A stretch of DNA of 64,000 nucleotides from Patescibacteria group bacterium (GTDB lineage: Bacteria; Patescibacteriota; UBA1384; UBA12157; JAENIV01), in the NCBI GenBank assembly GCA_049515915.1, contig JBEKTP010000004.1, forward strand, positions 12,709-76,708. The letters run 5' to 3'. A program made the translations under genes and the position numbers. Positions 1 to 10,985 of this stretch are shown piece after piece. Under the pieces are notes generated by a model, which searched no databases, was not told the DNA's origin, and saw only the letters and a list, made by a program, of their open reading frames with translations. Within the stretch, counting starts at the first letter, position 1. The number at the start of each line of letters is the position of its first letter.

Positions 1-1884
1 GTATTCAACCAAATGTTTTCGAATATCAAAGTTATGACCTTCGACTTTTTTCTGGGCCGATTCGATCGAACGCGAAATGAGCGAATGCTGGATAGGCATA
101 TCTTCGGGCAGACTCATTTTCTCCATCATGCTTTTCATCCGGTCACCACCGAAAATGCGCATTAAATCGTCATCCATCGAAACATAAAATTGAGAAGAGC
201 CTGGATCACCTTGACGACCCGAGCGGCCGCGCAGCTGATTATCGATTCGGCGAGATTCATGTCTTTCGGTGCCAATCACGTGCAGGCCGCCGGCTTGAAC
301 GACTTTTTCATACGGAGTTTTATTAAACGGCGAACCGCCCAAAATAATATCAACACCGCGGCCGGCCATGTTGGTCGCCACCGTCACATTGGCAGGTTGA
401 CCCGCTTGCTCAATAATTTTTGCTTCGCGTTCATGATGTTTAGCATTTAAAACTTGATGTTTGACGCCCGAACGCTTTAAAAGCCGCGAAAGTTTTTCCG
501 ATTTTTCGATCGAAATCGTGCCCACCAAAACGGGCTGACCGCTTTCGGATCTTTTTTTAATTTCTAAAGCGACCGCTTTAAACTTGCCGTCCTCGGATTT
601 ATAAATCATGTCGTGAGCATCTTTGCGGACCATCGGTTTGTTGGTCGGAATAACCACGACGTCAAGTTTATAAATTTTATAGAATTCCTCCGCTTCGGTT
701 TCGGCCGTGCCGGTCATCCCTGCCAGTTTTTTATAAAGTCGAAATAAATTCTGAAAAGAAATAGTCGCTAAAGTGTCGGACTCGCGCTGGACTTCGACGC
801 CTTCTTTGGCTTCAATCGCTTGGTGAAGACCTTCAGAGTAGCGGCGACCAGGCATCATGCGGCCAGTAAATTCATCAACAATAATGACTTCGCCATCTTT
901 AACGACATAGTCTTTGTCTTTTTTATAGAGTGCGTGAGCAATTAAAGCTTCTTCTAAATGATGAACCAGTTCGATCGAACGGGCGTCATAAATATTTTCG
1001 ATTCCCAACATCCCTTCGATCTTCTTCATCCCGACATCCGTTAGCGAAACGGCTCGCATTTTTTCATCAACAGTGAAGTCTTCCTCCTTTGTTAATTGCG
1101 GCACCATCATTGCAAATTGGCGATATAATGACGCTGACTCCTCGGCCGGGGCAGAAATAATCAAAGGCGTGCGCGCTTCGTCAATTAAAATTGAGTCCAC
1201 TTCATCGACAATGGCGAAATTGAGCTCCGGCCTTTGCACCATTTGTTCCAAGCTCTGGACCATATTATCGCGCAAATAATCGAAACCGAATTCATTGTTG
1301 GTGCCGTAAGTAATGTCGGCGGCGTAGGCATCTTTCCGCGTCACCGGCCAGAGATTTTTCCAGGTTGGGTCGTCGGTTTCAATGTTTTCCGGTCGATAAA
1401 CCCAAGACTTATCGTATTCAATCGCCCCGACCGTTAAACCTAAAATATGATAAATCGGCCCCATCCATTGAGCATGGAATTTCGCCAAGTAATCATTAAC
1501 TGTCACAAGATGGACACCTTTACCTTCGAGCGCATTTAAATACAATGGCAGCGTCGCGACCAAGGTTTTTCCTTCGCCGGTTTTCATTTCGGCAATTTTT
1601 CCTTGGTGAAGAACCATTCCGCCGATAAGTTGAACATCAAAATGCCGCTGGCCGATTGTTCTTTTGGCCGCTTCGCGCACTAAAGCAAACGCTTCTGGCA
1701 ATATTTCATCAAGCGTCGCACCTTTTGATAATCTTTCTTTAAATTCCGCCGTTTTTTCTTTAAGTTCTTTATCGGTCAGTTTTTGAAAATCATCTTCAAG
1801 ACCATTTATCTTTTCAATAACCGGCTTAAAACCACCAATAACTTTTTCATTCGAGTCAAAAATTTTACCTAAAAACCCCAGCAT
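1..1884 (-). CDS. secA: Preprotein translocase ATPase SecA (N-terminal ~628 aa; gene continues beyond window start)
   Basis: Manual minus-strand translation from ATG at 1884: [48 protein letters not shown]...[30 protein letters not shown]...[18 protein letters not shown]. SecA DEAD-motor motifs present. Absent from the ORF track only because no stop codon lies inside the window. Confidence 0.95.
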
Positions 1885-1953
1885 TTTTAATATCCTTTTT
1901 TACCTAGCTCTAAATCATATTTTAGCACTTTTTTAGGTTAAATAGAAGAGACT

Positions 1954-2322
1954 TTAGAGTTCGTCTTCGGCTTCTTCTTCGAGTTCAGCTTCGTGATATT
2001 TTTGGGGATAACGCGTGCCGATTTTAACTTGTTCCTTATATTTTGAGATTTGAGTTTCCAAACGCTCTTCAATCAGATCAATCGAACCTTTATAATCAGA
2101 GGTTACTTCTTCAATATGAATTGGGTTTTTGATACCGGGTAAAGTCATGGTGAGAGAAACCGCTTTATCCACGCCGCCCTTTGGACCCATCAAATCGCTT
2201 AGAACTACTTCTAATATAGCCGGTTCAGAAACCAGTTTTTCAAACTTTCGGAGTCTTTCTTCAATATAACCTCTTAAATTATCGTCGACTTTAAACTGTT
2301 TGCCGGAAATAATTATTTTCAT
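1954..2322 (-). CDS. hpf: Ribosome hibernation promoting factor (HPF/RaiA/YfiA family)
   Basis: 122 aa, MKIIISGKQFKVDDNLRGYIEERLRKFEKL... typical sigma-54 modulation/ribosomal subunit interface protein. 4-nt overlap with serS and conserved hpf-secA synteny. Confidence 0.85.
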   Translation of the reverse strand: MKIIISGKQFKVDDNLRGYIEERLRKFEKLVSEPAILEVVLSDLMGPKGGVDKAVSLTMTLPGIKNPIHIEEVTSDYKGSIDLIEERLETQISKYKEQVKIGTRYPQKYHEAELEEEAEDEL

Positions 2323-3539
2323 GACTTAATTTCTTTAAAATCCAAATATTTTTGTAATGCTTCGGGCACTTTAACCGTACCATCATTTTGATAAAAATTT
2401 TCCAAAATGGCGATCAGCATTCGGCCAATCGCCACCGCTGTGCCATTGAGAGTATGAACAAATTCATTACCTTTATCCGATTTATAGCGAATATTTAAAC
2501 GCCGCGCTTGAAAATCAGTGCAGTTACTTGATGAATGGGTTTCGCGGTATTTTTCTTGGCCGGGCAGCCAAATTTCTAAATCGACGGTTTTCGCGCAGGG
2601 CAATCCTAAATCCCCGGTACAAACTTGGACAAGGCGGTAGGGGAGACCCAAACCGGAAACTATTTTTTCTTCCAAATTTACAATCAACTCGTGTTCTTTT
2701 TCAGAGTCTTCCGACTTTGAAAAACTAAACATTTCTAATTTATCAAACTGATGAGTCCGCAATATCCCCTTCACATCTTTGCCGTAACTGCCTGCTTCAC
2801 GGCGTAGACAGGTTGAAAAACCGACAAATCTTTGCGGGACATCGATAATTTCATCCGCATAATATGGCAAAATCGATTGTTCGGAAGTGCCAATCGCTAC
2901 TAAATCATCGCTACGCATATGATACGCGTCGTCATTGGTGGCTTCAAAATGGCCCGACCCCCACGCTATGTCTTCTTTAATTAAAACTGGGGTCAAAATT
3001 GGCTTAAATCCTTCCTGCTTGATGATATCCATGGCATATTTTACCAGCGCAAACTCGAGTTCGACCGCTTCATTTTTAAGATAATAAAACCGGCTACCGG
3101 AAACTTTGCCGGCGCGTTCGATATCGATAAGATCCAAAGCTTTACCGATTGTCACATGGTCTCGGCCGGATTTCAATTTGATCTCGCCAACAGTTTTTAG
3201 GACTTTATTTGCGGCGTCAGATTTTCCTTCGGGCACATCTTTAAAAGGAATATTAGGCACTTTGACCGCTTCGACTTTGAAATTTTCTTGCGTATCGACT
3301 AACTGCGGCTCGAGATCTTTAAGCATAGCTTTAATTTCTTTGGCGTGCGTCATATCGCCCTTTTCTTTTGAAACTTTATTTTGTTCGGCCCGCAAAAGTT
3401 CGATGCGGCCTTCGAGACCGCGGCGGTCTTCATCGAGCTTTAAAAGTTTCTCCCAATCGATATTGACCCCGCGTTTGGCGATAGCCGATTTAACTTCTTC
3501 CAAATTTTCCCGAATGTATTTTATGTCAAGCATATTCAC
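2319..3539 (-). CDS. serS: Seryl-tRNA synthetase (class II)
   Basis: 406 aa with N-terminal coiled-coil arm plus class-II core (FSTCLRREAGSYGKD, TLNGTAVAIGRMLIAILENF). Track start at 3539 is GTG; an ATG at 3533 preceded by AAGAGGTG is the more likely start. Confidence 0.95.
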   Translation of the reverse strand: MNMLDIKYIRENLEEVKSAIAKRGVNIDWEKLLKLDEDRRGLEGRIELLRAEQNKVSKEKGDMTHAKEIKAMLKDLEPQLVDTQENFKVEAVKVPNIPFKDVPEGKSDAANKVLKTVGEIKLKSGRDHVTIGKALDLIDIERAGKVSGSRFYYLKNEAVELEFALVKYAMDIIKQEGFKPILTPVLIKEDIAWGSGHFEATNDDAYHMRSDDLVAIGTSEQSILPYYADEIIDVPQRFVGFSTCLRREAGSYGKDVKGILRTHQFDKLEMFSFSKSEDSEKEHELIVNLEEKIVSGLGLPYRLVQVCTGDLGLPCAKTVDLEIWLPGQEKYRETHSSSNCTDFQARRLNIRYKSDKGNEFVHTLNGTAVAIGRMLIAILENFYQNDGTVKVPEALQKYLDFKEIKS

Positions 3540-3549
3540 CTCTTAAATA

Positions 3550-4576
3550 TTATATCATCTTTTTTAGTTTTTTTCTCAAGTAATATCCATTACAATGTTT
3601 TAAAAGTCCAAGATATGATGGTAAATTTTTTTTACTTCGTTTTTGCAACATTCTCTTCTTGGTCTTGGTTCGCAAAACTCGATAATGCGGCAAAATAACA
3701 TAGCCTAAAAAATCTATGCCTTGTTTTAATTTACGCACAATAATTTTTTGAGGATGCGGTCTTAACGCAAGACGGCAATCAAGAAAAAAAGAAATTCGGC
3801 CGACCAAAATCTCTAACTCAGTGCGGTTGCCGCTTAAAATTACAAAGTCATCGCAATAGCGAAGATAATATTTGATTTTTAAACGATGTTTAATAAACTG
3901 GTCAAGTTCGTTGAGATAGATATTGGCAAAAAGCTGTGAAGTTAAATTGCCAATCGGAAGCCCAGTTCCGTTGAGGTTTAACTCGCGGATTGGATTCGTC
4001 TCTCTCTCTCTCTCTCTCGAAAAGTCCCTGCTGAACATATGGTTTATTAAAGCTACCAATAATAACTTTCAATAGCCATTGTGTGTCAGGATCGGGGACT
4101 TTTCGAGCAACAATATCAAAAAGAGCTCGATGATTGACCGAGGCAAAGAACTTTTTAACATCGCATTTTAATACCCAGCACGGCTTGGTATAATTTTTGC
4201 TGACAATCCTCGTAAATTCTTCCAGCCGTTTTACCGCCTTATGCGTACCTTTTTTATTTCGACAAGAATAAGAACCGTCCACAAAACCAGGGTCAAAAAT
4301 CGGATATAATACCCGATAAATCGCGTGGTGAACAATCCTATCTTTAACACAAGCTTTGTGAATATGCCTCGATTTAGGGTCAGTGATGTAAAATGAGGTA
4401 TAATCGGAATGCCGATAAGTTTTACTTTTAAGTTCCAAGTGCAGGCCGAATAAATTATCTTCTAAATTACGCTCAAATTCTTGAACATCAATCTTGTGGC
4501 GTTTACCCTTCCTAAACTCCTTCCAAGACCAAAATAAGTTTTCTAAAGAAATAATTTTTAAAAAGAGGTTATCCAT
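3550..4576 (-). CDS. DGR reverse transcriptase, interrupted by a frameshift inside a (TC)10 dinucleotide repeat (two overlapping ORFs 3902..4576 and 3550..4059)
   Basis: N-terminal ORF: ...FYITDPKSRHIHKACVKDRIVHHAIYRVLYPIFDPGFVDGSYSCRNKKGTHKAVKRL... (RT motifs 1-2). C-terminal ORF: GLPIGNLTSQLFANIYLNELDQF...YLRYCDDFVIL (DGR-RT signature QGxxxSP-like LPIGNLTSQ and YxDD catalytic box). Both frames read ERERE across the (GA)n repeat at 3999..4018. Total ~340 aa, DGR/retron-size RT with no maturase or endonuclease domain. Confidence 0.9.
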
Positions 4577-4916
4577 GATTAATGATGTTCCAATTGTCCA
4601 AAAGGTTTACGACTTTTACCGTGAATTTTATCAGACTCTTCCAAGCATGCCAAAACAGGACCGTCATGTTTTAGGCGGCAAAATCCAGCAAGCCACACTT
4701 GATCTTTTAGAAGATTTAATCTCGGCCAGCCATCAAGGAAAACAAAATAAACTCGAATATTTATCGAAGGCGGCAACGAAACTGGATTTACTCAAGCTTC
4801 TTTTACGGCTGGCGGAAGATATAAAAGCCATATCTCCCAAAAGATATTTGGCGCTCTCGGAAATCTTGCAAGAAATCGGCAAGATGCTCGGCGGCTGGAT
4901 TAGAAGTCTCAACTAA
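4575..4916 (+). CDS. avd: DGR accessory variability determinant (Avd; four-helix-bundle / 23S-IVS protein family)
   Basis: Track ORF 4494..4916; likely start ATG 4575 (MINDVPIVQKVYDFYREFYQTLPSMPKQDRHVLGGKIQQATLDLLEDLISA...ILQEIGKMLGGWIRSLN). The pattern and C-terminal IGKMLGGWIRSLN closely parallel Bordetella phage bAvd (..VGRILGSWIARVN), quoted from memory rather than checked here. Start overlaps the RT start divergently. Confidence 0.75.
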   Translation: MINDVPIVQKVYDFYREFYQTLPSMPKQDRHVLGGKIQQATLDLLEDLISASHQGKQNKLEYLSKAATKLDLLKLLLRLAEDIKAISPKRYLALSEILQEIGKMLGGWIRSLN

Positions 4917-4956
4917 AAGCAAAAACTCCCGCCAATGACGGGAGAAATGAAGAAAG

Positions 4957-5083
4957 TTGCGGCGGAACGCCCACCGGTTGTTGCCATTCCAGACGTTGTC
5001 GGGGTGACCATTGTTGCCGTTGAGCCAACGTCCGTCCTCGTTGCGTTCGACGTTGAACACCTTGAGGTTGCCGTCGGAGTCCG
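4957..5083 (-). repeat. DGR template repeat (TR)
   Basis: 127-bp near-copy of 5506..5632. All ~23 mismatches fall where this copy has T on the + strand (A on the minus/transcribed strand). The corresponding pseudo-ORF is Asn-rich (NVERNEDGRWLNGNNGHPDNVWNGNNRWAFRRN), i.e. AAY codons. Confidence 0.9.
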
Positions 5084-5154
5084 TCAAGTGCAAAACGCCC
5101 TCCGAAGTCACTGCTCCTCGATTACTCTCAGAGCTGTATTTTATTTTGGGCCAT

Positions 5155-5355
5155 TTAACCCACTGGCGTTTTGCACCAAGTATCTTCATTTTTTAAGCAT
5201 TGCCGAATCGCTATATGCAAAGAAACTTTGCTTATAACAGGCCAATAGACCTCACTATCCCAAGCCGTAGCCGGGAATACTCCGGATTTGACAACGCCAG
5301 GATTCGGTAGCGGAAAGCCGTAACCGTCCGCATATTCACCTAATACCTTACCCAT
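5155..5355 (-). CDS. Hypothetical 66-aa protein between VR and TR (possible DGR accessory ORF)
   Basis: ORF with AAGGAA RBS 3 nt upstream of ATG; no recognisable family; ends just upstream of TR. Confidence 0.3.
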   Translation of the reverse strand: MGKVLGEYADGYGFPLPNPGVVKSGVFPATAWDSEVYWPVISKVSLHIAIRQCLKNEDTWCKTPVG

Positions 5356-5407
5356 TGTTCCTTATGAGTACTTATCTGTCAAGTCAATTTTAAAAAATTT
5401 TCGAAAA

Positions 5408-5452
5408 CCCGATTTTGAAGATACAAAATCGGGCCCCGCTCTCGCGGGGCCC
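5408..5452 (-). terminator. GC-rich hairpin (9-bp stem, 4-nt loop, 5431..5452) followed by a rho-independent terminator hairpin (5408..5433 plus T-tract), immediately downstream of the DGR target gene/VR
   Basis: +strand gggccccgc-tctc-gcggggccc and cccgatttt-gaagatac-aaaatcggg; on the minus strand the second stem is followed by TTTTCGAAAATTTTTT. Confidence 0.65.
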
Positions 5453-5501
5453 GGACAAGACCCAAGGATCCAAAAGAAACAAGGATCCAAGGTACAAAGA
5501 A

Positions 5502-6176
5502 CTACTTGCGGCGGAACGCCCACCGGTCGTCGCCATCCCAGACGCCGGCGGGGTGACCACGGTGGCCGTAGAGCCAACGACCGCCCTCGTCGCGCGCGAC
5601 GCTGAACACCCGGAGGCGGCCGCCGGAGACCGAGATAGGCTCCATACCCACCAGAATCCACTCGCCCATCGGTTGATCGGCGTACTGAAGACGCCACTGC
5701 GGCCCGACTTCCGCCGGACAGAGACCCAGCCCCATGGAGAGCGCTTTCTCGTAGATCTGGGCCCGGGTTGCGCCGTTGGGAAATCCCAACTCGGCGACCG
5801 AGACCACCACGATATCCACGTCCTCCGGCTTCGAAGCGACATTGATCCGCTTGAGAATGTCGTCGCCCCAGTCGCCGATGCGGTAACCCGCGTCAAGGAG
5901 AGCCTTCCGCAAGTCCTTGACGGACTTGTGCGTGCCCAGCTTGATGGTCGCGAACGGCCTGCGCTCCATGATGGGTTTGCGCAGTTGCTGCTCGGCAGCC
6001 AACTGGTCGAGGAGATCGTGGTGCCGCTTCTTGAACTCGGGGTGATCCATGGCATCCTGCAGATCGGCGGTATTCCGCCGTTCTCTGCCGATAGCCTCGC
6101 AGCGCCGACCGTAGTCCTTAACCGCGTCTTCTGAGACACCTTCCTGCGTCGCTTCGAGAGTAACTCGATCTTTCAT
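5502..6176 (-). CDS. DGR target (variable) protein, 224 aa, C-terminal C-type-lectin-like VR region
   Basis: C-terminus ...VFSVARDEGGRWLYGHRGHPAGVWDGDDRWAFRRK aligns with the TR-encoded NVERNEDGRWLNGNNGHPDNVWNGNNRWAFRRN, with Asn replaced by S/D/G/Y/H/R/A. No signal peptide. Locally GC-rich (>60%) against a ~40% background. Overlapping ORFs 5390..6139(-), 5415..6134(+) and 5362..5697(-) are GC-artefact frames. Confidence 0.85.
   Translation of the reverse strand: MKDRVTLEATQEGVSEDAVKDYGRRCEAIGRERRNTADLQDAMDHPEFKKRHHDLLDQLAAEQQLRKPIMERRPFATIKLGTHKSVKDLRKALLDAGYRIGDWGDDILKRINVASKPEDVDIVVVSVAELGFPNGATRAQIYEKALSMGLGLCPAEVGPQWRLQYADQPMGEWILVGMEPISVSGGRLRVFSVARDEGGRWLYGHRGHPAGVWDGDDRWAFRRK
5506..5632 (-). 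repeat. DGR variable repeat (VR), 3' end of target gene
   Basis: Aligned to TR: identical except at TR-adenine positions (T->C/G/A on + strand). Ends at the stop codon of ORF 5502..6176. The first ~21 nt (ttgcggcggaacgcccaccgg) are identical in both copies (IMH-like). Confidence 0.9.
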
Positions 6177-6351
6177 CGGTTACTTCTCCTTTACTCTGTG
6201 TTTTTTTTAACTAGGTCTACACCTGACCCGCAGTCGCTGGTCTATCCTCTAGGAGGAAGCCCAACGATCTGATGATATCTTAACGCTTCCAGGTTGGAAA
6301 CGCCATTTTAATGTGCACTCACGATAAGATTAACTCATCGTGAAGTAACCA

Positions 6352-6374
6352 GTTAGTATAGCACAATTATACCA
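6352..6374 (-). promoter_or_regulatory. Putative extended -10 promoter (TGTGCTATACT) upstream of DGR target gene
   Basis: Minus strand reads GGTATAATTGTGCTATACTAAC; the same TGTGCTATACTAAG motif recurs upstream of ftsA (17768..17790) and CTATACTAAAG upstream of secG. Confidence 0.4.
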
Positions 6375-6424
6375 AAAAATCAAGGTCTTGGCCCTGATTT
6401 TGCGGTAAGAATTTCCCTTTTAAC

Positions 6425-6727
6425 CTATTTTAATATTCCTAACTTCGCCTCAATTTTCGACAACCTTTGTTTTACTTCGATAAGTTCGTCACGTCTGACC
6501 ATTTCCGTCGCTATAAATTCCAAATGAGAAATATCTTTTCTAATTTGTTTTTGACCTTTAACCAAACTGGTATGAATGGTAGTAATGGCATCAAATTCTC
6601 TTTTTGCCATCGCCGCTAAACTACCAACCTCACCTTCAATCTTTTTTTCCAATTTTTTCTCAGTTTGGTTGGCCCTTTTATCAACGATTGTGCTAATCTG
6701 CTTTAAGTCGTCAGTAGTTAATGTCAT
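6425..6727 (-). CDS. Hypothetical coiled-coil protein (100 aa)
   Basis: Lys/Glu-rich heptad-like sequence, no family recognised; TTGACA-17-TAATAT promoter with a perfect palindrome (atattaaaaGttttaatat) at its start. Confidence 0.5.
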   Translation of the reverse strand: MTLTTDDLKQISTIVDKRANQTEKKLEKKIEGEVGSLAAMAKREFDAITTIHTSLVKGQKQIRKDISHLEFIATEMVRRDELIEVKQRLSKIEAKLGILK

Positions 6728-6765
6728 ATTATGATATTAAAAGTTTTAATATTGCTTGTCAACAT

Positions 6766-6818
6766 CCACGGCCTAAAGGCCGTGGCTTGTGGCAGACTCT
6801 TGTTCCTACTGGAACAAG
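6766..6818 (-). terminator. Two tandem 8-bp-stem hairpins downstream of lysK
   Basis: ccacggcc-taaa-ggccgtgg (6766..6785) and cttgttcc-tact-ggaacaag (6799..6818), directly after the lysK stop. Confidence 0.5.
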
Positions 6819-8369
6819 TCAAATCGCTTCTTTTAATCTTTTTATTACAAATTTCCTGTCCAAACTTGCCAAAAGCCAGCCGGCTTGCGGGCCGGAATCT
6901 TTGCCGATAAATACTTTATATATGGCTGAAAAAGCATCACGCGGCGAAATTCCCAATTCATTTTTAATAGTATGAATTTCTTTATGCAAATCTTCGCCGG
7001 TCCAAGAATCTTTTGATTTGATAGCATTCGCGACTTTAGAGAGAAATTCTTTCTGTGCGTCCGATAATTCTACTTCGGGCAATTTCTCCGCAATCGTAAA
7101 TTTGTAATTTTCCGGCGCGTAATCCTTCAACCATTTTTGGGCAATTTCGATTCGGCTTTCGATTTCCTTTTTTTCGATATATGATAATACGGCACCCTTT
7201 TCTTTTTGGGCATAATCAAAAATATCGGACCTTGGCATTTGGAGCATATAAGCGATTTTGGAAAAACGCAATAAATATTCCGGCTGTTTACTTGAAGATT
7301 CGATTTCGCTAAAGTAAAACGCCCGGCCAGTATCTGACTTTGGATCTTTTTGATAATCTTTGGCGCAACGATCATATTCGTCGTAGAGCAAAGGAATTGT
7401 ATCTCCGCTTGCGTCGAACTCGATTGCTCTTTTTGCTCGTGTACGAACCATCAAAAATCTTAAAAGATTAGGTGGTAAAATAGCGGCCATCTCTTCGGTC
7501 GAAGCACCCACACCTTTCGAGGTACTCATCTTTTTGCCGCCAACAAGAAGCCATTCATAACCGTAGCCATAAGCGGGTTTAATTTTAAAAATTTCCTCGG
7601 CAATGGCGCGCGCAATATAGAATGTTCCACCTTTAGTATAATGATCTTTGCCAGCCAATTCGACCGACGTGCCAAACTTAAACCATTTCGCCGCCGTTTC
7701 AACTTTATACGGCATTTTACCATTGCCATCAAAGGGGCTGATTTTACCTTCATAACCGCAACCTTTAGCCCACTCGACAAGATTTTCTTCACACCTAAAA
7801 GTCACTTCCTTTCCATCCCAAGCGGTAACCTTAGTTGTACCAATTCTGCCACATTTAGGACAGACGACTTGAAATGGATACCAATCATTCGGTTTTCCGC
7901 CGCCGGAAACTTTCTTGTAAATCTCGCGAATTTTGGGAGCATTATTGAGAATAATTTCGATTGATTTATTATAAGCGCCGGATTTATAAAGCTCTGATGC
8001 CCAAATTATTTTTGCCTGAACACCCAGTGTTTGGAAAACTTTTATGAAACTATCGGCAAAAAAATGAGCAAAATTTTTGTGACCTGATCCGGGAGACGGG
8101 ATATTGCAGAGCGGGACTCCCATATATTTAACATAAGTATTTTTAAATTCTGACGAGAGAGCGTCAACCGGATCAAAATCATCGAAGCCGTAATGAAATT
8201 CACTTTCTTGATTGGATTCCTTCAGCCCTCGATCAATAACATCGTGAATAATAACACCTCGCAGAGCTCCGACATGAATTCGGCCCGAAGGCGTTTTATA
8301 ATCGGTAATTAAATATTTTTTGTCGTCCCGCTTGATAATTTCTTGAACTGTTTCATCAACCCAAAACAT
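6819..8369 (-). CDS. lysK: Lysyl-tRNA synthetase, class I (archaeal-type LysK)
   Basis: 516 aa; HVGALRG (HIGH-like), KMSTSKG (KMSKS), and a CPKCGR...C zinc knuckle, as in class-I LysRS. Confidence 0.85.
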   Translation of the reverse strand: MFWVDETVQEIIKRDDKKYLITDYKTPSGRIHVGALRGVIIHDVIDRGLKESNQESEFHYGFDDFDPVDALSSEFKNTYVKYMGVPLCNIPSPGSGHKNFAHFFADSFIKVFQTLGVQAKIIWASELYKSGAYNKSIEIILNNAPKIREIYKKVSGGGKPNDWYPFQVVCPKCGRIGTTKVTAWDGKEVTFRCEENLVEWAKGCGYEGKISPFDGNGKMPYKVETAAKWFKFGTSVELAGKDHYTKGGTFYIARAIAEEIFKIKPAYGYGYEWLLVGGKKMSTSKGVGASTEEMAAILPPNLLRFLMVRTRAKRAIEFDASGDTIPLLYDEYDRCAKDYQKDPKSDTGRAFYFSEIESSSKQPEYLLRFSKIAYMLQMPRSDIFDYAQKEKGAVLSYIEKKEIESRIEIAQKWLKDYAPENYKFTIAEKLPEVELSDAQKEFLSKVANAIKSKDSWTGEDLHKEIHTIKNELGISPRDAFSAIYKVFIGKDSGPQAGWLLASLDRKFVIKRLKEAI

Positions 8370-8463
8370 TGTACCTTTCAGGGAAATCCCAAATCCTAAA
8401 CTTCAAATATCAAATTATTTAGAATTTAGATTTTTGAATTTGATATTTCTAACTTCATCCTAT

Positions 8464-8505
8464 CAAAAAAGAGGCCCAGATTCAATCTCAAAACCTCTTT
8501 TTTGA
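8464..8505 (-). terminator. Rho-independent terminator after greA
   Basis: 9-bp stem aaaaagagg/cctcttttt with T-tract on the minus strand. Confidence 0.55.
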
Positions 8506-8525
8506 ATATTGTGAGACTTAAAAAG

Positions 8526-8981
8526 CTATTTAATACCGATAATGACGCATTCCATCTTGCCGTTCGGGGTGGAAATTTCGACTTTGTCGCCTTTAGCCTT
8601 ACCCATCAGCGAGTACCCAATCGGCGATTCGGAGGAAATTTTGCCAGCGGCCGGATCAGATTCCGAAGAGCTGACAATGGTGTATTCCAGCGTCTGACCA
8701 TCCATCTTCAACGTCACCGTTGAACCCATTTCGACATTGCCGCTACCGTTTTTAGCAACAATTTTAGCTGAGCGGATCATTTCCTCAATCTCTAAAATTC
8801 TCCCTTCGACAAAAGACTGTTCGTTTTTGGCGTCCTCATACTCGGAATTTTCCGAGAGATCCCCATACTCGCGCGCGTTACGGATTCTTTCAACCACCGT
8901 TTTGCGACGTTCTTTTAAATTGTCCAGTTCTTTTCTAAGCTTTTCTAAACCTTGAGTTGTTAATAATAACTGCCCGGTCAT
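8526..8981 (-). CDS. greA: Transcription elongation factor GreA
   Basis: 151 aa; N-terminal coiled coil (LTTQGLEKLRKELDNLKERRKTVVERIRNAREYGDLSENSEYEDAK) plus C-terminal FKBP-like domain. Confidence 0.9.
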   Translation of the reverse strand: MTGQLLLTTQGLEKLRKELDNLKERRKTVVERIRNAREYGDLSENSEYEDAKNEQSFVEGRILEIEEMIRSAKIVAKNGSGNVEMGSTVTLKMDGQTLEYTIVSSSESDPAAGKISSESPIGYSLMGKAKGDKVEISTPNGKMECVIIGIK

Positions 8982-9077
8982 TGAAGTTTCCTCTTTTGGT
9001 TCCTTAAGATGATTTTTATCTATTTTAATACAAATTTATTTTAGCGTCAATAGAAACTAATAAGAATCTGCCTTAAG

Positions 9078-10985
9078 CTACTTTTGAAAGTAATAATTTA
9101 AAATGTCTCGGACGACGGGGCCCGCTTCCGCATAGCCTTCGCCGCCTTGTTCAACCAAAACCGCCACGGCAATTTGAGGGTTATCGTAAGGAGCATAAGC
9201 CGTCATCCAAGCATGAGTTTTACCGGCGACTTCAAACTGGGCCGTGCCGGTTTTGGCGGCGGCCGGAACCGTCAAGCTGCCCAGCTGACTTCGGGCCGAG
9301 CCGCTGGTAACAGCCTCCCGCATTCCTTCTTGAACAACCTGGATATATTGAGGATCAATAAATTTATCTTTCAAAATGTCTTTTTGAAAAACTTCCACGA
9401 CATTGCCATTTTGATCGGTAATTTTATTGACTACTTCCGGCTTTAAAACTTCGCCACCGTTGGCAATCGCCGAAGTGGCCATGACCATTTGTAGCGGGGT
9501 AACCAATAAATCTCCCTGCCCAATGCCTAAGTGATAAGTATCGCCTAAATACCAACTTTCGCCTTTAGTTTTTAGTTTCCAAGCCGGGTCCGGCACCAGT
9601 CCAGTTGCTTCGCCGGGCAGATCAATGCCCGTTTTTTGCCCAAACCCAAATTTAAGCAAATATTTTTTGATCGTTTCGACACCCAAACCCTTGATTTTAT
9701 CCCAACCGCCGGCCACCGAATAAAAAAAGACATCACAACTGACAGCAATCGCTTTACGGACATCGGTTAAACCAAATCCGCCTGGTTTCCAATCGGGATA
9801 AACATAATTACCGACTTTGATTTCACCCGGCGCGTTAATGGTTGTACTGGGGGTGATTTCTCCTTCCTGCAAAGCCATCGAAGCCATAAAAGGTTTAATG
9901 ATTGAACCGGACGGATATTGTCCGGCAATCGCTCGATCGAATAAAGGGTTATCGGGATTTTGTAAGAGCTGCTGGTATTCCTGCGAAGCGGTCGGTCGAG
10001 TAAATAAATTATTATCGTACGAAGGAAGACTAACCAATCCTAAAATTTGGCCGGTCTGCGGATTCATCGCAATCGCCACGCCGCCGGTGCCTTTGGAAGA
10101 TGAAATAACGTTTTGGAGTGAACTGGCCATCACCTGCTCTAAACCGCTATCAATATTTAAAACCAAATTGTCGCCCGGCTGCGGCTCGGTATTTGAAAGC
10201 TGTCTTTGTTGCTGACCTTTGGCATCAACTTCCACTTCGGAAACGCCTGGCACTCCTTTGAGATATTTTTCGTAAGACATTTCCAGTCCGTCTTTGCCGA
10301 TTTCGTCGCTCGATTTGTAACCGGGATTATTTTTAAGTTCTTCCGCCGAAATTTTTCCCACGTATCCTAAAATTGTCGAAAGTCCCGGAATGGTGGCATA
10401 TTGTCGGATCGGATCAGTCGAGACTCCCACCCCGGGCAAATTAGCCGTTTTGACCTGTAGCAGCAAGGCTGTATCCCGATCAAGATTTTGTTTTAAGATG
10501 ACGGGGTCATAAGTCGAAAGTCCTTTTTGAGCCACAGCCGTGGCAATATCATCAACCGGAATTTGAGCAATAAGAGATAAGGTAGTGTAAATGTTTTCTC
10601 GGGCGGATTTATCTTTCGGCAAATCTAAGGGATAAATTTCCAAGCTATAAGAAGCGGTATTTTGAGCTAAAACTTTTCCTTTGGCATCAGTAATTAATCC
10701 CCTGGGGGCGGCGATGTCGCGAACTCTAATTCGATTGCCTTCGGCCAAACTGAGATTAAAACTGCCTTGAGTAATTTGAAGCCGAAGCAGCTGGGCAAAA
10801 AGAGTCCCAAAAATAATTAAGGCGATAAGATAGGCGCCCCAAATAGAGCCGGGTTCTTTCTTGAAAATCTCCCCGCCTTCCGCGTCTGACTTAAAATGCT
10901 CATACTCTAAAGTGTGTTCTTTGAGAATGCGTTTTGACTTATCGCCGGGGAGAGATTTATTGTCAAACAAATCAAATATCGACAT
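9078..10985 (-). CDS. mrdA: Penicillin-binding protein 2 (peptidoglycan D,D-transpeptidase MrdA)
   Basis: 635 aa; N-terminal TM, dimerisation domain, transpeptidase motifs SIIKP (SxxK), and KTGTA (KTG), following mreBCD. Confidence 0.9.
   Translation of the reverse strand: MSIFDLFDNKSLPGDKSKRILKEHTLEYEHFKSDAEGGEIFKKEPGSIWGAYLIALIIFGTLFAQLLRLQITQGSFNLSLAEGNRIRVRDIAAPRGLITDAKGKVLAQNTASYSLEIYPLDLPKDKSARENIYTTLSLIAQIPVDDIATAVAQKGLSTYDPVILKQNLDRDTALLLQVKTANLPGVGVSTDPIRQYATIPGLSTILGYVGKISAEELKNNPGYKSSDEIGKDGLEMSYEKYLKGVPGVSEVEVDAKGQQQRQLSNTEPQPGDNLVLNIDSGLEQVMASSLQNVISSSKGTGGVAIAMNPQTGQILGLVSLPSYDNNLFTRPTASQEYQQLLQNPDNPLFDRAIAGQYPSGSIIKPFMASMALQEGEITPSTTINAPGEIKVGNYVYPDWKPGGFGLTDVRKAIAVSCDVFFYSVAGGWDKIKGLGVETIKKYLLKFGFGQKTGIDLPGEATGLVPDPAWKLKTKGESWYLGDTYHLGIGQGDLLVTPLQMVMATSAIANGGEVLKPEVVNKITDQNGNVVEVFQKDILKDKFIDPQYIQVVQEGMREAVTSGSARSQLGSLTVPAAAKTGTAQFEVAGKTHAWMTAYAPYDNPQIAVAVLVEQGGEGYAEAGPVVRDILNYYFQK

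What the first reader, a model, noticed from the sequence alone, without database searches (positions are those of the whole stretch)
3550..6176. Complete diversity-generating retroelement (DGR) with a perfect adenine-specific TR/VR signature
A DGR-type RT (LPIGNLTSQ, YCDD), an Avd four-helix-bundle protein, and two 127-bp repeats (TR 4957..5083, VR 5506..5632) are present. The repeats differ at ~23 positions, every one where the TR carries A on the transcribed (minus) strand, and at no other position. The VR ends exactly at the stop codon of a 224-aa ORF whose C-terminus (VFSVARDEGGRWLYGHRGHPAGVWDGDDRWAFRRK) mirrors the Asn-rich TR reading frame (NVERNEDGRWLNGNNGHPDNVWNGNNRWAFRRN). This is the hallmark of mutagenic retrohoming into a C-type-lectin-like ligand-binding fold. 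It is the main accessory system in the window. DGRs are known to be enriched in CPR genomes, so the element class is not new, but this instance has several unusual properties, listed separately below.
Basis: partly seen in the sequence, partly recalled or inferred. Interest (0 to 1): 0.85.

Follow-up and report, generated by a model that had tools for sequence, protein, structure and literature searches.

The report
Active DGR with repeat-switched reverse transcriptase
This is a genuine diversity-generating retroelement in a Patescibacteria genome that has recently rewritten its target gene in nature, yet its reverse transcriptase gene is knocked out of frame by a hypervariable (GA)n repeat that looks like a built-in on/off switch.

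Summary
TR 4957-5083 and VR 5506-5632 differ at 22 positions, and every one is a TR adenine on the minus strand (P about 8e-17). Avd passes NCBIfam's DGR-Avd cutoff. The RT is closest to a solved 328-aa RT that I take from memory to be the Bordetella DGR RT. The 224-aa target has no known family and a weakly C-type-lectin-like predicted fold.

Twelve other public assemblies of the same organism are almost identical over 98.6 kb. They nevertheless carry 7 VR alleles with 138 substitutions, all at TR adenines, while TR never changes. The element has therefore been active very recently.

"Complete" needs a caveat. The RT gene is split by a frameshift at a (GA)10 tract (3999-4018). Tract length is 10, 12, 13, 15, 16 or 18 across the 13 assemblies and is never in frame.

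The same tract sits in the same RT loop in 18 related loci. Fifteen of these are frameshifted, against 0 of 52 loci without a tract. A sister clade has an (AC)n tract in avd instead.

A covariation-supported structured RNA abuts the TR 5' end and has no Rfam match. I found no prior description of repeat-gated DGRs.

The parts
5502..6176 (-). DGR target gene, 224 aa. It has an N-terminal helical region and a C-terminal compact CLec-like domain, with no signal peptide or TM segment.
5506..5632 (-). Variable repeat (VR), encoding aa 182-224 of the target.
   Evidence: 22 of 22 mismatches to TR are at TR adenines. Seven DNA alleles occur in 13 assemblies, with 138 of 138 substitutions at TR adenines.
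5506..5525 (-). IMH-like GC-rich 3' end of VR (CGGTGGGCGTTCCGCCGCAA). It is identical to the TR 3' end at 4957-4976. Its two terminal adenines are never substituted.
   Evidence: Identical IMH and IMH* are described for some DGRs by Wu 2018.
5430..5453 (-). 10-bp all-GC hairpin with a GAGA loop, followed by a T-run, 52 nt downstream of VR. It is the target-gene terminator and/or the DGR target-site hairpin/cruciform.
   Evidence: Terminator scan. A hairpin occurs at the same position with a different sequence in relatives. It fits the 7-10-bp GC stem and 4-nt GRNA loop consensus of Guo 2011, but lies beyond their 4-34-bp distance range.
5354..5382 (-). Promoter-like site (TTGACA-17-AACAAT) just upstream of the conserved TR leader. 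Inferred start of the TR RNA.
   Evidence: The -35 box is conserved in L090, and nucleotide conservation starts right after it.
5085..5204 (-). Conserved structured RNA element abutting the 5' end of TR: a 12-bp long-range helix enclosing a 7-bp helix. The wider conserved leader runs 5346->5084.
   Evidence: Leader about 85-90% identical to L089 and L090. Fold z = -4.6. nhmmer hits in about 35 loci. Covariation: 95% of cells paired against 28-56% in slid controls, 91 (seed alignment) and 223 (43 sequences) double-sided changes, 0 of 500 shuffles as good. Model R1 hits the window once (E 1.9e-19) and 60 related loci, always on the RT-sense strand just upstream of TR. No Rfam match.
4957..5083 (-). 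Template repeat (TR). It is invariant in all 13 assemblies.
4926..4944 (-). Stem-loop plus T-run 12 nt after TR. Inferred 3' end of a separate TR transcript.
   Evidence: A hairpin plus T-run is found at the same place, with a different sequence, in L096, L098, L099 and L012.
4575..4916 (+). avd (113 aa), divergent from RT. The two ATGs overlap head-to-head in CATG (4574-4577).
   Evidence: NF033474 at 101.9 bits (cutoff 80) and PF22296 at 81.5 bits (cutoff 40). avd is divergent and adjacent to RT in 131 of 160 related loci. This is architecture B3, TR-(avd)-RT, in Wu 2018.
4625..4653 (-). Promoter-like site (TTGGCA-17-TAAAAT with TG) inside avd, upstream of the RT start.
   Evidence: Consensus match only.
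3550..4576 (-). DGR reverse transcriptase gene, out of frame as assembled. The N-terminal ORF is 3902..4576 and the C-terminal part is 3550..~3998. One extra GA unit, or two fewer, gives a 342- or 340-aa RT.
   Evidence: No other RT copy in the 64-kb window.
3999..4018 (-). (GA)10 simple-sequence repeat inside the RT ORF, in a variable loop just before motif GLPIGNLTSQ. Proposed phase-variation switch.
   Evidence: It is the only dinucleotide run of 6 or more units in the 64 kb. n = 10, 12, 13, 15, 16 or 18 in otherwise identical assemblies. The same site carries a tract in 18 related loci. The loop is an insertion relative to 8ub7 and has pLDDT below 50.

Best explanation
This is a chromosomal diversity-generating retroelement of a Patescibacteria (CPR) bacterium. 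Its layout is target/VR - TR - (avd, opposite strand) - RT, inserted between the serS and class-I lysS genes.

Inferred from DGR biology: a short non-coding RNA is transcribed from about 5346 to about 4920 on the minus strand. It consists of a conserved structured leader, the 127-nt TR and a terminator hairpin. The RT, with Avd, copies TR into cDNA and misincorporates opposite template adenines. The cDNA replaces VR, the last 43 codons of a 224-aa, apparently cytoplasmic, CLec-like protein. That gives 18 variable codons and about 1e17 possible proteins.

Shown here: this process has operated very recently in the natural population.

Proposed additional layer: RT production is gated by a hypermutable (GA)n tract in a tolerant loop of the RT. 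Slipped-strand changes of one unit shift the reading frame, so the diversifier is ON only when n mod 3 = 2. In this window (n = 10) and in every assembly seen so far it is OFF. Diversification would then occur in bursts in a minority of ON cells, and successful VR alleles would be fixed in OFF lineages.

Sub-confidences: DGR identity and recent activity 0.97; tract is genuinely hypervariable 0.9; it acts as a reversible ON/OFF (or strongly attenuating) switch 0.65; the leader RNA is a real structured element 0.95; its role as an RT/Avd handle or cDNA stop is a guess.
For: DGR identity. TR/VR mismatches are 22 of 22 at A. Avd passes the curated cutoffs. The RT is closest to the DGR-type solved RT and to RTs of phages I recall as DGR carriers. 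Adenines sit at codon positions 1 and 2 with 8 AAC codons. There is no second VR and no second RT in the window.

Recent activity. Twelve other assemblies align to the window over 98.6 kb with only 8 substitutions outside VR and the tract. VR has 16-23 differences from TR per allele, 138 in total, all at TR adenines, and TR is invariant. The 90% protein cluster of the target holds 10 sequences. Nine differ only in the VR-encoded tail; P0008 matches the window's protein there and differs only at aa 42.

Switch, in this population. n = 10, 12, 13, 15, 16 or 18 in 13 assemblies with no other change in the RT gene. The same truncated RT forms recur on 2-9 independent contigs each. No full-length RT at 90% identity or more exists among 5.8e9 clustered proteins; the best full-length hit is 68% identical.

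Switch, in relatives. The tract is at the same loop in 18 related loci whose RT is 61-100% identical. Fifteen are frameshifted, in both wrong frames, and 3 are intact. None of 52 tract-less loci is frameshifted (Fisher P 1e-12). Four GTDB genomes carry in-frame 20-21-nt tracts. A Berkelbacteria RT cluster contains the ON form (18 contigs) and two OFF forms truncated just after the RERERE run. Near-identical contig pairs differ only by one tract unit: L096/L097 and L101/L102.

Tolerant site. The tract lies in an insertion relative to 8ub7 that varies from 0 to about 100 aa among relatives and is modelled as disordered.

Convergent case. A sister clade carries (AC)6-11 in the 5' end of avd. Four loci are in frame and 20 are out. 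Pairs such as L122 (n = 11) and L123 (n = 10) differ only by the tract and a VR.

Frameshifted relatives still have A-specific TR/VR pairs.
Against: No in-frame allele of this particular population has been seen, so reversibility is inferred from relatives rather than shown here.

Assemblies give only the majority genotype, and read-level heterogeneity could not be examined.

The OFF excess is only suggestive. GA class: 3 ON of 18, P = 0.10 against one third. Pooled with the avd class: 7 of 42, P = 0.013. Some loci are duplicates.

The avd-class frame calls assume the ATG that overlaps the RT start is the true start.

Promoter and terminator assignments are consensus matches.

I could not read Paul et al. 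2017, the main survey of CPR DGRs, so prior mention of the tract cannot be excluded.
Confidence: 0.8

Rival explanations
1. Leaky attenuator rather than binary switch. RNA polymerase or the ribosome slips by one GA unit on the tract, so every 'OFF' allele still yields a little in-frame RT. The tract keeps RT at a low level instead of switching it on and off at the DNA level.
For: Both OFF frame classes are one unit away from in frame. VR has diversified although all 13 assemblies are OFF. A dinucleotide realignment keeps full pairing in an RNA:DNA hybrid (my inference).
Against: In-frame alleles do exist in relatives and dominate in some of them: P0076 on 18 contigs, plus L091, L094, L139, L008, L009, L012 and L057. 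DNA-level length changes are directly observed. Known transcriptional slippage mostly involves homopolymers (my background knowledge). This rival is not mutually exclusive with the main explanation.
Confidence: 0.2
2. A decaying element. The RT has been inactivated at a mutational hotspot, and the VR diversity is left over from before inactivation.
For: The RT is out of frame in all 13 assemblies, and no intact copy is in the protein database.
Against: The two RT halves carry no other lesion and are identical in all assemblies. VR alleles differ by 16-23 positions between genomes that have 0 other differences in 6.6-10.9 kb, so diversification is younger than any ordinary substitution, while the tract changed repeatedly within single VR alleles. 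A perfect tract is kept at the same site in RTs down to 61% identity, and some are in frame.
Confidence: 0.08
3. The tract-length differences and the frameshift are sequencing or assembly artefacts, and the real gene is intact.
For: Dinucleotide repeats stutter in PCR-based libraries. Assemblers can mis-size repeats longer than k.
Against: The tract (20-36 nt) is shorter than typical reads and the final k-mers. The same lengths recur in independent assemblies and sources: P0013 on 9 contigs, P0011 on 4 including the NCBI MAG, P0014 and P0015 on 3 each. Frameshifts occur only where a tract exists (0 of 52 otherwise). The same holds for a different repeat, (AC)n, in avd.
Confidence: 0.04
4. VR is diversified in trans by an RT from another DGR elsewhere in the genome, and the local RT is dispensable.
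For: Only 64 kb of the genome was seen. CPR genomes can carry several DGRs (my background knowledge).
Against: There is no second RT, avd, TR-like or VR-like sequence in the window. The local RT, avd, TR and leader RNA are perfectly conserved. As far as I know, DGR RT/Avd recognise their own RNA flanks.
Confidence: 0.05

Closest known systems
Bordetella phage BPP-1 DGR (mtd-avd-TR-brt), the prototype
   Same: RT with the IGxLTSQ motif. The best solved-structure match is 8ub7 at E 6e-44. Avd is present. The TR/VR pair shows adenine-only differences. VR lies at the 3' end of a CLec-type target. The 3' end of the repeat is GC-rich and IMH-like. A GC hairpin with a GRNA loop lies downstream of VR.
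   Different: The element is chromosomal in a CPR bacterium. avd is on the opposite strand with overlapping start codons. TR appears to be a separate terminated transcript. Its conserved structured RNA is 5' of TR, not the 3' spacer between TR and RT. The hairpin is 52 nt from VR. The target is a small non-secreted protein. The RT ORF is interrupted by a hypervariable repeat.
CPR/DPANN DGRs (Paul et al. 2017; the 'CPR set' and architecture B3, TR-(avd)-RT, of Wu et al. 2018, PMC5758913)
   Same: Same host group, same cassette order and avd orientation. The target is of unknown family, as for most CPR targets.
   Different: The texts I could search mention neither SSR tracts in RT or avd nor a TR-adjacent RNA structure. 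Paul 2017 itself was not readable.
Simple-sequence-repeat contingency loci (phase variation in Haemophilus, Neisseria, Campylobacter)
   Same: A perfect repeat whose unit is not a multiple of 3 lies inside an ORF. Its length is polymorphic between otherwise identical genomes. Both wrong frames and the right frame are observed. It sits in a length-tolerant region.
   Different: The gated gene is not a surface antigen or a methyltransferase. It is the enzyme (or accessory factor) of another targeted hypermutation system. The hosts are uncultivated CPR bacteria. Switching rates and phenotype are untested.
RT-10 RNA motif (Weinberg et al. 2017, PMC5737381), the spacer region of the BPP-1 DGR RNA
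   Same: A conserved structured RNA next to TR that is presumably part of the DGR template RNA.
   Different: RT-10 lies between TR and RT, 3' of TR. The element here lies 5' of TR and matches no Rfam family at E up to 1.

Membership tests
Diversity-generating retroelement | RT of the DGR clade (closest to DGR RTs; [I/L]GxxxSQ in motif 4 instead of QGxxxSP) | tested here: met
   8ub7 at E 6e-44 against about 1e-18 for group II/retron-type RTs. The alignment shows GLPIGNLTSQ against GIPIGSLTSQ, while the group-II-like chain has GTPQGGNLSP. Full-length 34-40% matches to RTs of phages I recall as DGR carriers. NCBIfam's group II model scores 144 bits, below its cutoff of 300.
Diversity-generating retroelement | TR/VR repeat pair whose differences are confined to TR adenines | tested here: met
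   22 of 22 in the window (P 7.8e-17). 138 of 138 over 7 alleles.
Diversity-generating retroelement | VR inside (usually at the 3' end of) a protein-coding target gene | tested here: met
   VR covers nt 545-671 of the 675-nt ORF 5502..6176(-).
Diversity-generating retroelement | Accessory variability determinant (Avd), present in most DGRs | tested here: met
   NF033474 at 101.9 bits (cutoff 80); PF22296 at 81.5 bits (cutoff 40).
Diversity-generating retroelement | IMH-type GC-rich 3' boundary, and a hairpin downstream of VR that is absent after TR | tested here: inconclusive
   The 20-nt GC-rich end is identical in TR and VR and is never mutated. A GC hairpin with a GAGA loop follows VR, but 52 nt away and with a T-run. 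TR is also followed by a different hairpin.
Diversity-generating retroelement | Intact RT reading frame | tested here: not met
   There is a frameshift at the (GA)10 tract in the window and in all 12 other assemblies. It is restored by +1 or -2 units.
Diversity-generating retroelement | Ongoing VR diversification in populations while TR stays constant | tested here: met
   7 DNA alleles and 10 protein sequences in the cluster (9 distinct VR-encoded tails) in a near-clonal background; TR identical in 13 of 13 assemblies. This is based on assembly consensus, not reads.
Diversity-generating retroelement | Target variable region displayed on a C-type-lectin (or Ig) fold | tested here: inconclusive
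SSR-mediated phase-variable (contingency) gene | Perfect short repeat, unit not a multiple of 3, inside the ORF or promoter | tested here: met
   (GA)10 at 3999-4018 inside the RT. It is the only such run in the 64 kb.
SSR-mediated phase-variable (contingency) gene | Repeat number varies between otherwise identical genomes | tested here: met
   n = 10, 12, 13, 15, 16 or 18 with 0 other differences in the RT gene. Relatives L096/L097 and L101/L102 differ by one unit only.
SSR-mediated phase-variable (contingency) gene | Both ON and OFF lengths occur within one lineage | tested here: inconclusive
   Not seen in this population, where all alleles are OFF in two different wrong frames. Seen in the Berkelbacteria relative: ON on 18 contigs plus two OFF forms. 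Seen in the avd-tract clade: L122 ON against L123/L129 OFF.
SSR-mediated phase-variable (contingency) gene | High-frequency reversible switching with a phenotypic consequence | not testable with these tools
   This needs read-level data, cultures or reconstitution.

The most novel reading that the evidence does not exclude
In a large lineage of Patescibacteria DGRs the diversifier is itself under hypermutable control. A (GA)n tract in a tolerant loop of the RT, or in a sister clade an (AC)n tract in the 5' end of avd, switches mutagenic retrohoming on and off by slipped-strand mispairing. Populations would consist mostly of 'locked' cells plus a small, continually regenerated subpopulation that is diversifying. 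The same lineage uses a previously undescribed structured RNA at the 5' edge of TR as part of its template RNA.
Probability: 0.6. Interest if true: 0.85.

Novelty: new variant of a known kind. Interest (0 to 1): 0.72.

Why it matters
How DGR activity is regulated in cells is largely unknown. Constitutive adenine mutagenesis of a useful binding protein should be costly. A repeat-based ON/OFF switch on the RT or on Avd would be a simple, heritable, reversible answer: bet-hedging at the level of evolvability.

It would also explain how a 'broken' RT can sit next to a freshly diversified VR. On the practical side, DGR-finding pipelines that discard elements with interrupted RT or avd genes (I did not check whether they do) would undercount or misclassify active elements in CPR genomes.

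The data here make the idea directly testable, because the samples, the tract and the VR alleles are all identified. The TR-adjacent RNA, with strong covariation across about 60 loci, gives a handle on how non-Bordetella DGRs recognise their template.

The DGR itself, taken alone, is an ordinary if very clean member of a known class.

Tried and rejected
- Rfam scan of 3000-7000 at E up to 1: only three chance-level hits and no RT-associated motif.
- Pfam and NCBIfam on the target, and Pfam on 61 family members: nothing.
- Profile of the target family against PDB sequences: nothing.
- Foldseek against PDB: not significant. Foldseek against viral BFVD: nothing meaningful. afdb50 was not available.
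- Second VR (TR with A->N) in the 64 kb: none.
- Second RT, avd or target copy in the window: none apart from the TR echo.
- Exact look-ups of repaired RTs with n = 8, 11 or 14: absent from the collection.
- Programmed frameshift as a single fixed event: rejected, because both wrong frames occur.
- Split RT with an internal start: rejected, because no consistent start codon exists across frame classes.
- ORF 5155..5355(-), 66 aa, as a protein: rejected in favour of RNA, because of 20-24-nt indels between relatives and base-pair covariation.
- Mosaic VR alleles (for example L169 = 5' half of the L168 allele plus 3' half of the window allele) as proof of partial retrohoming: not accepted, because recombination or chimeric consensus explains them equally well.
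- Literature searches for SSR or phase-variable DGR components and for TR-adjacent RNA structures found no such description.
- Paul et al. 2017 could not be opened.
- '8UB7' is not mentioned in the library, so its identity as the Bordetella bRT rests on my memory plus its 328-aa length and motif.


Full report
**1. The observation**

The window holds one long direct repeat, 4957-5083 and 5506-5632 (127 nt, offset 549). A base-by-base comparison gives 22 mismatches. Every one is a T in the + strand of the first copy, that is, an A on the minus strand (A>G 13, A>C 6, A>T 3). So 22 of its 33 adenines and none of its 94 other bases differ. The probability that 22 mismatches all fall on the 33 A positions is 7.8e-17.

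Homology stops at 4956/5505 and at 5085/5634. Position 5084 (T/A) could be a 23rd adenine change.

The second copy occupies nt 545-671 of the 675-nt ORF 5502..6176(-) and ends one base before the stop. Read in that frame, the first copy has adenines at codon positions 1 and 2 in 31 of 33 cases, with 8 AAC and 2 AAT codons.

**2. The proteins**

- **Avd.** ORF 4575..4916(+) scores 101.9 bits against NCBIfam NF033474 'diversity-generating retroelement protein Avd' (cutoff 80) and 81.5 bits against Pfam bAvd (cutoff 40).
- **RT is split.** The RT is not a single ORF. ORF 3902..4576(-) holds the N-terminal half and ORF 3550..4059(-) holds the half with LPIGNLTSQ and YCDD. The two frames differ by one base, and the junction is a (TC)10 run at 3999-4018, which is (GA)10 on the coding strand. 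Adding one GA unit or removing two gives an uninterrupted RT of 342 or 340 aa.
- **RT clade.** The repaired protein hits the solved 328-aa reverse transcriptase 8ub7 at E 6e-44, against about 1e-18 for group II and 'retron-type' RTs. It shares that RT's GxPIGxLTSQ motif, where the group-II-like chain has QGGNLSP. I take 8ub7 to be the Bordetella phage DGR RT from memory; the table only says 'Reverse transcriptase', and the library has no paper naming the entry. Against phage genomes the repaired RT gives full-length 34-40% matches to RTs of phages that I recall as DGR carriers: Bordetella phages, Vibrio VP585, ANMV-1, crAss-like phages and Faecalibacterium FP_Lagaffe.
- **Uniqueness.** The window has no second RT, avd or target copy and no second sequence matching TR with A->N.

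**3. The target**

The 224-aa protein has no Pfam or NCBIfam hit. It belongs to a family of about 148 unannotated proteins of 200-225 aa from Patescibacteria, Berkelbacteria and Parcubacteria assemblies. In these the core (aa ~75-180) is well conserved, while the last ~45 residues keep only scaffold positions.

There is no hydrophobic segment or signal-like N-terminus. I therefore call it a divergent, probably cytoplasmic CLec-like binding protein, with moderate confidence in the fold and none in the ligand.

**4. Evidence that the element works in nature**

The exact Avd sequence is encoded on at least 47 public contigs. I fetched 12 assemblies of the same locus. Over 98.6 kb of alignment to window 1-10916 there are only 8 substitutions outside VR and the GA tract. 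Six assemblies with zero outside differences still have 16-23 differences from TR in the 127-nt VR.

Thirteen assemblies carry 7 VR alleles with 138 substitutions relative to TR. All are at TR adenines. 28 of the 33 adenines have been hit, and the two in the terminal CAA never. TR is identical in all 13. The 90% protein cluster of the target holds 10 sequences. Nine differ only in the VR-encoded tail; the tenth, P0008, has the window's tail and differs only at aa 42.

Some alleles are mosaics of others. That could be recombination or chimeric consensus, so I do not count it as evidence of partial homing.

**5. The tract in the RT**

(GA)10 is the only dinucleotide run of 6 or more units in the 64-kb window. 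In the 13 assemblies its length is 10 (3 times), 12 (5 times), 13, 15, 16 and 18 (twice), with no other change in the RT gene. Several lengths occur on the same VR allele: allele C has 13, 15 and 18. The truncated RT products expected from n = 10, 12, 13, 15 and 16 are each on record from 2-9 independent contigs.

In frame requires n mod 3 = 2, and none of the observed lengths qualifies. A search of 5.8 billion protein clusters finds no full-length RT more than 68% identical. The RT is therefore OFF in every consensus of this population, in two different wrong frames. Even so, VR has diversified more recently than any ordinary mutation has accumulated.

**6. The tract is a lineage feature, not an accident**

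In an alignment of 21 full-length relatives, about half carry RERERE-type runs at the same place. That place is an insertion of 0 to about 100 aa between the helix ending ...IIxSF and the GxPIGNLTSQ motif. It is absent from 8ub7 and is modelled as disordered in the repaired RT (pLDDT below 50 for residues 179-213).

At the DNA level, among 80 metagenomic loci fetched with the RT N-terminus:

| Loci | Frameshifted at the tract site | Intact |
|---|---|---|
| 18 with a (GA)n run of 12-32 nt at that site (RT identity 61-100%) | 15, in both wrong frames | 3 |
| 52 without a run | 0 | 51 (the other has an in-frame stop) |

The association gives Fisher P = 1e-12.

- Four species-representative genomes have in-frame 20-21-nt runs.
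- The RT cluster of Candidatus Berkelbacteria RIFOXYA2_FULL_43_10 contains the full-length form (13 + 5 contigs) and two forms truncated just after the run, one in each wrong frame.
- Contig pairs L096/L097 and L101/L102 are identical, or differ by 3 SNPs, apart from one GA unit.
- Relatives with interrupted RTs still have TR/VR pairs with A-specific differences.

**7. A second, independent implementation**

In a sister subclade without the RT tract, a (GT)6-11 run lies just upstream of the RT start. On the other strand it is (AC)n inside the 5' end of the divergent avd ORF, which reads M-H-T-S-K-D-I-(HT)n-A-Y-x-x-L-D-I-P-I-F. No alternative start codon lies between the run and the conserved Avd core. 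Four loci are in frame with the ATG and 20 are not.

Pairs L120/L121, L125/L126 and L142/L145 have 0 mismatches over 3.4-5.5 kb and differ only in run length. L122 (n = 11, in frame) and L123 (n = 10) differ only by the run and by 11 substitutions clustered in 35 nt of a VR.

Of 46 dinucleotide runs of 7 or more units in 840 kb of related loci, nearly all are one of these two kinds.

**8. Interpretation of the tract**

The anatomy is that of a classical contingency locus. A perfect repeat whose unit is not a multiple of three lies in a length-tolerant part of an ORF. It is hypervariable between clonal genomes, and right and wrong frames are both seen. I therefore think RT (or Avd) production is phase-variable, so that mutagenic retrohoming happens in bursts in ON cells and adapted VR alleles are carried by OFF lineages. 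ON cells would have heterogeneous VRs and would be under-represented in consensus assemblies; that last point is my inference.

Weak points:
- No ON allele has been seen in this population.
- The OFF excess is only suggestive: 3 of 18, P = 0.10; pooled 7 of 42, P = 0.013, with some duplicate loci.
- There are no read-level data.

The main rival that I cannot exclude is that slippage during transcription supplies a little in-frame RT from every allele, making the tract an attenuator. Decay, artefact and a trans-acting RT are each contradicted by several results (see the rival explanations).

**9. The template RNA**

On the minus strand, in order:
- A promoter-like site (5382->5354) follows the target's terminator hairpin (5453-5430).
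- Then comes a 260-nt leader (5346->5084), then TR.
- Twelve nt after TR is a stem-loop with a T-run (4944-4926).
- A second promoter-like site inside avd (4653->4625) precedes the RT start.

Relatives have hairpin-plus-T-run structures of different sequence at both positions. TR is therefore probably its own short transcript rather than part of the RT mRNA (inferred).

The leader is about 85-90% identical to those of L089 and L090, whose targets are only about 40% identical. It folds better than every one of 100 shuffles (z = -4.6). It is found by nhmmer in about 35 loci whose RTs are only about 50% identical.

For the 120 nt next to TR (window 5085-5204), RNAalifold on 23 sequences predicts a 12-bp long-range helix enclosing a 7-bp helix. 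On that alignment:
- 95.2% of cells pair, against 28-56% when partners are slid.
- 91 cells have changes on both sides, against 10-31.
- No shuffle out of 500 reaches the observed score.

A covariance model built from it hits the window once (E 1.9e-19) and 60 related loci, always on the RT-sense strand just upstream of TR. On 43 sequences, 223 cells show double-sided changes, against 63 or fewer in the controls. That alignment is fitted to the model.

Rfam has no match. The nearest described thing is the RT-10 motif, which lies 3' of TR in BPP-1. The structure is real. Its role, whether as an RT/Avd handle or as the end-point of cDNA synthesis at the TR 5' boundary, is a guess.

**10. Comparison with what is known**

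The cassette order target-TR-(avd)-RT is architecture B3 of Wu et al. 2018, and avd is divergent and adjacent to RT in 131 of 160 relatives. Identical IMH and IMH* sequences and CPR targets of unknown class are also described there. The hairpin after VR (10-bp GC stem, GAGA loop) fits the stem/loop consensus of Guo et al. 2011, but it lies 52 nt away (their range is 4-34 bp) and doubles as a terminator.

As a DGR, then, this is a clean new member of a known kind.

I did not find described anywhere the repeat tracts in RT and avd, their population behaviour, or the 5' TR RNA element. The key CPR survey, Paul et al. 2017, was not readable.

**11. Verdict**

The element is best described as a new variant of a known kind: a naturally active DGR whose RT is gated by a hypervariable repeat.

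Confidence is 0.97 for the DGR and its recent activity, and about 0.65 for the switch. Interest is 0.72, driven by the switch and the RNA element rather than by the DGR itself.

Noticed in passing
L011, L110, L111, L115-L118, L120-L126, L128, L129, L131, L135, L142-L145 (for example L110 2463-2484, L122 2451-2472): A sister clade of these DGRs has a (GT)6-11 run, which is (AC)n on the avd strand, inside the 5' end of the divergent avd ORF. Four loci are in frame and 20 are out of frame. Near-identical contig pairs differ only in run length. L074, L164 and L167 have (CT)/(GA) runs near the avd/RT starts.
   Followed up: partly
window 5400-6200 (target gene) against its flanks; also L089, L090, L008, L023: The target gene is a GC-rich island: 63% GC against 36% for the RT, 41% for avd and 42% for the window. 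The same contrast is seen in several relatives (0.62-0.65 against 0.40-0.48) but not in all (L065: 0.35 against 0.31). Adenine depletion explains only the VR end. The cause is unexplained.
   Followed up: partly
window 5454-5501 (minus strand, between the VR/stop and the GC hairpin); same position in L089, L090, L096-L099, L102, L139, L009, L057: Every relative has a T/G-rich stretch with repeated YTTGG motifs here. In the window it reads GTACCTTGGATCCTTGTTTCTTTTGGATCCTTGGGTCTTGTCC and includes a 17-nt direct repeat at 5457-5490. It could be a target-site recognition element or merely 3'-UTR composition.
   Followed up: no
window 4574-4577: The avd and RT start codons overlap head-to-head in CATG, so each gene's promoter and ribosome-binding site must lie inside the other's coding sequence. 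In the sister clade the overlap is the palindrome ATGCAT.
   Followed up: partly
window 4935..5237 (+) and 5155..5355 (-): A 100-aa ORF antisense to TR is called as a gene in the JGI contigs. A 66-aa ORF overlaps the conserved leader RNA. Both look spurious: the first follows from TR's GC-rich composition, and the second has 20-24-nt indels between relatives and overlaps covarying helices.
   Followed up: partly
window 6425..6727 (-): A 100-aa predicted coiled-coil protein with no family match lies just upstream of the target, with two promoter-like sites between them. It is present in all assemblies of the locus. Any link to the DGR is unknown.
   Followed up: no
VR alleles in L169, L171 and proteins P0005, P0007, P0009: Some VR alleles are mosaics of other alleles: the 5' part matches one and the 3' part another. 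Others differ from a common allele by a single adenine position. These could reflect recombination, chimeric consensus of mixed populations, or partial homing.
   Followed up: partly
window 1-10916 against L005 (window 3100-3142): Five of the eight non-VR substitutions seen in the whole population comparison cluster within 43 nt of the serS gene, all in one assembly (L005). This may be a small recombination patch or a local assembly problem.
   Followed up: no
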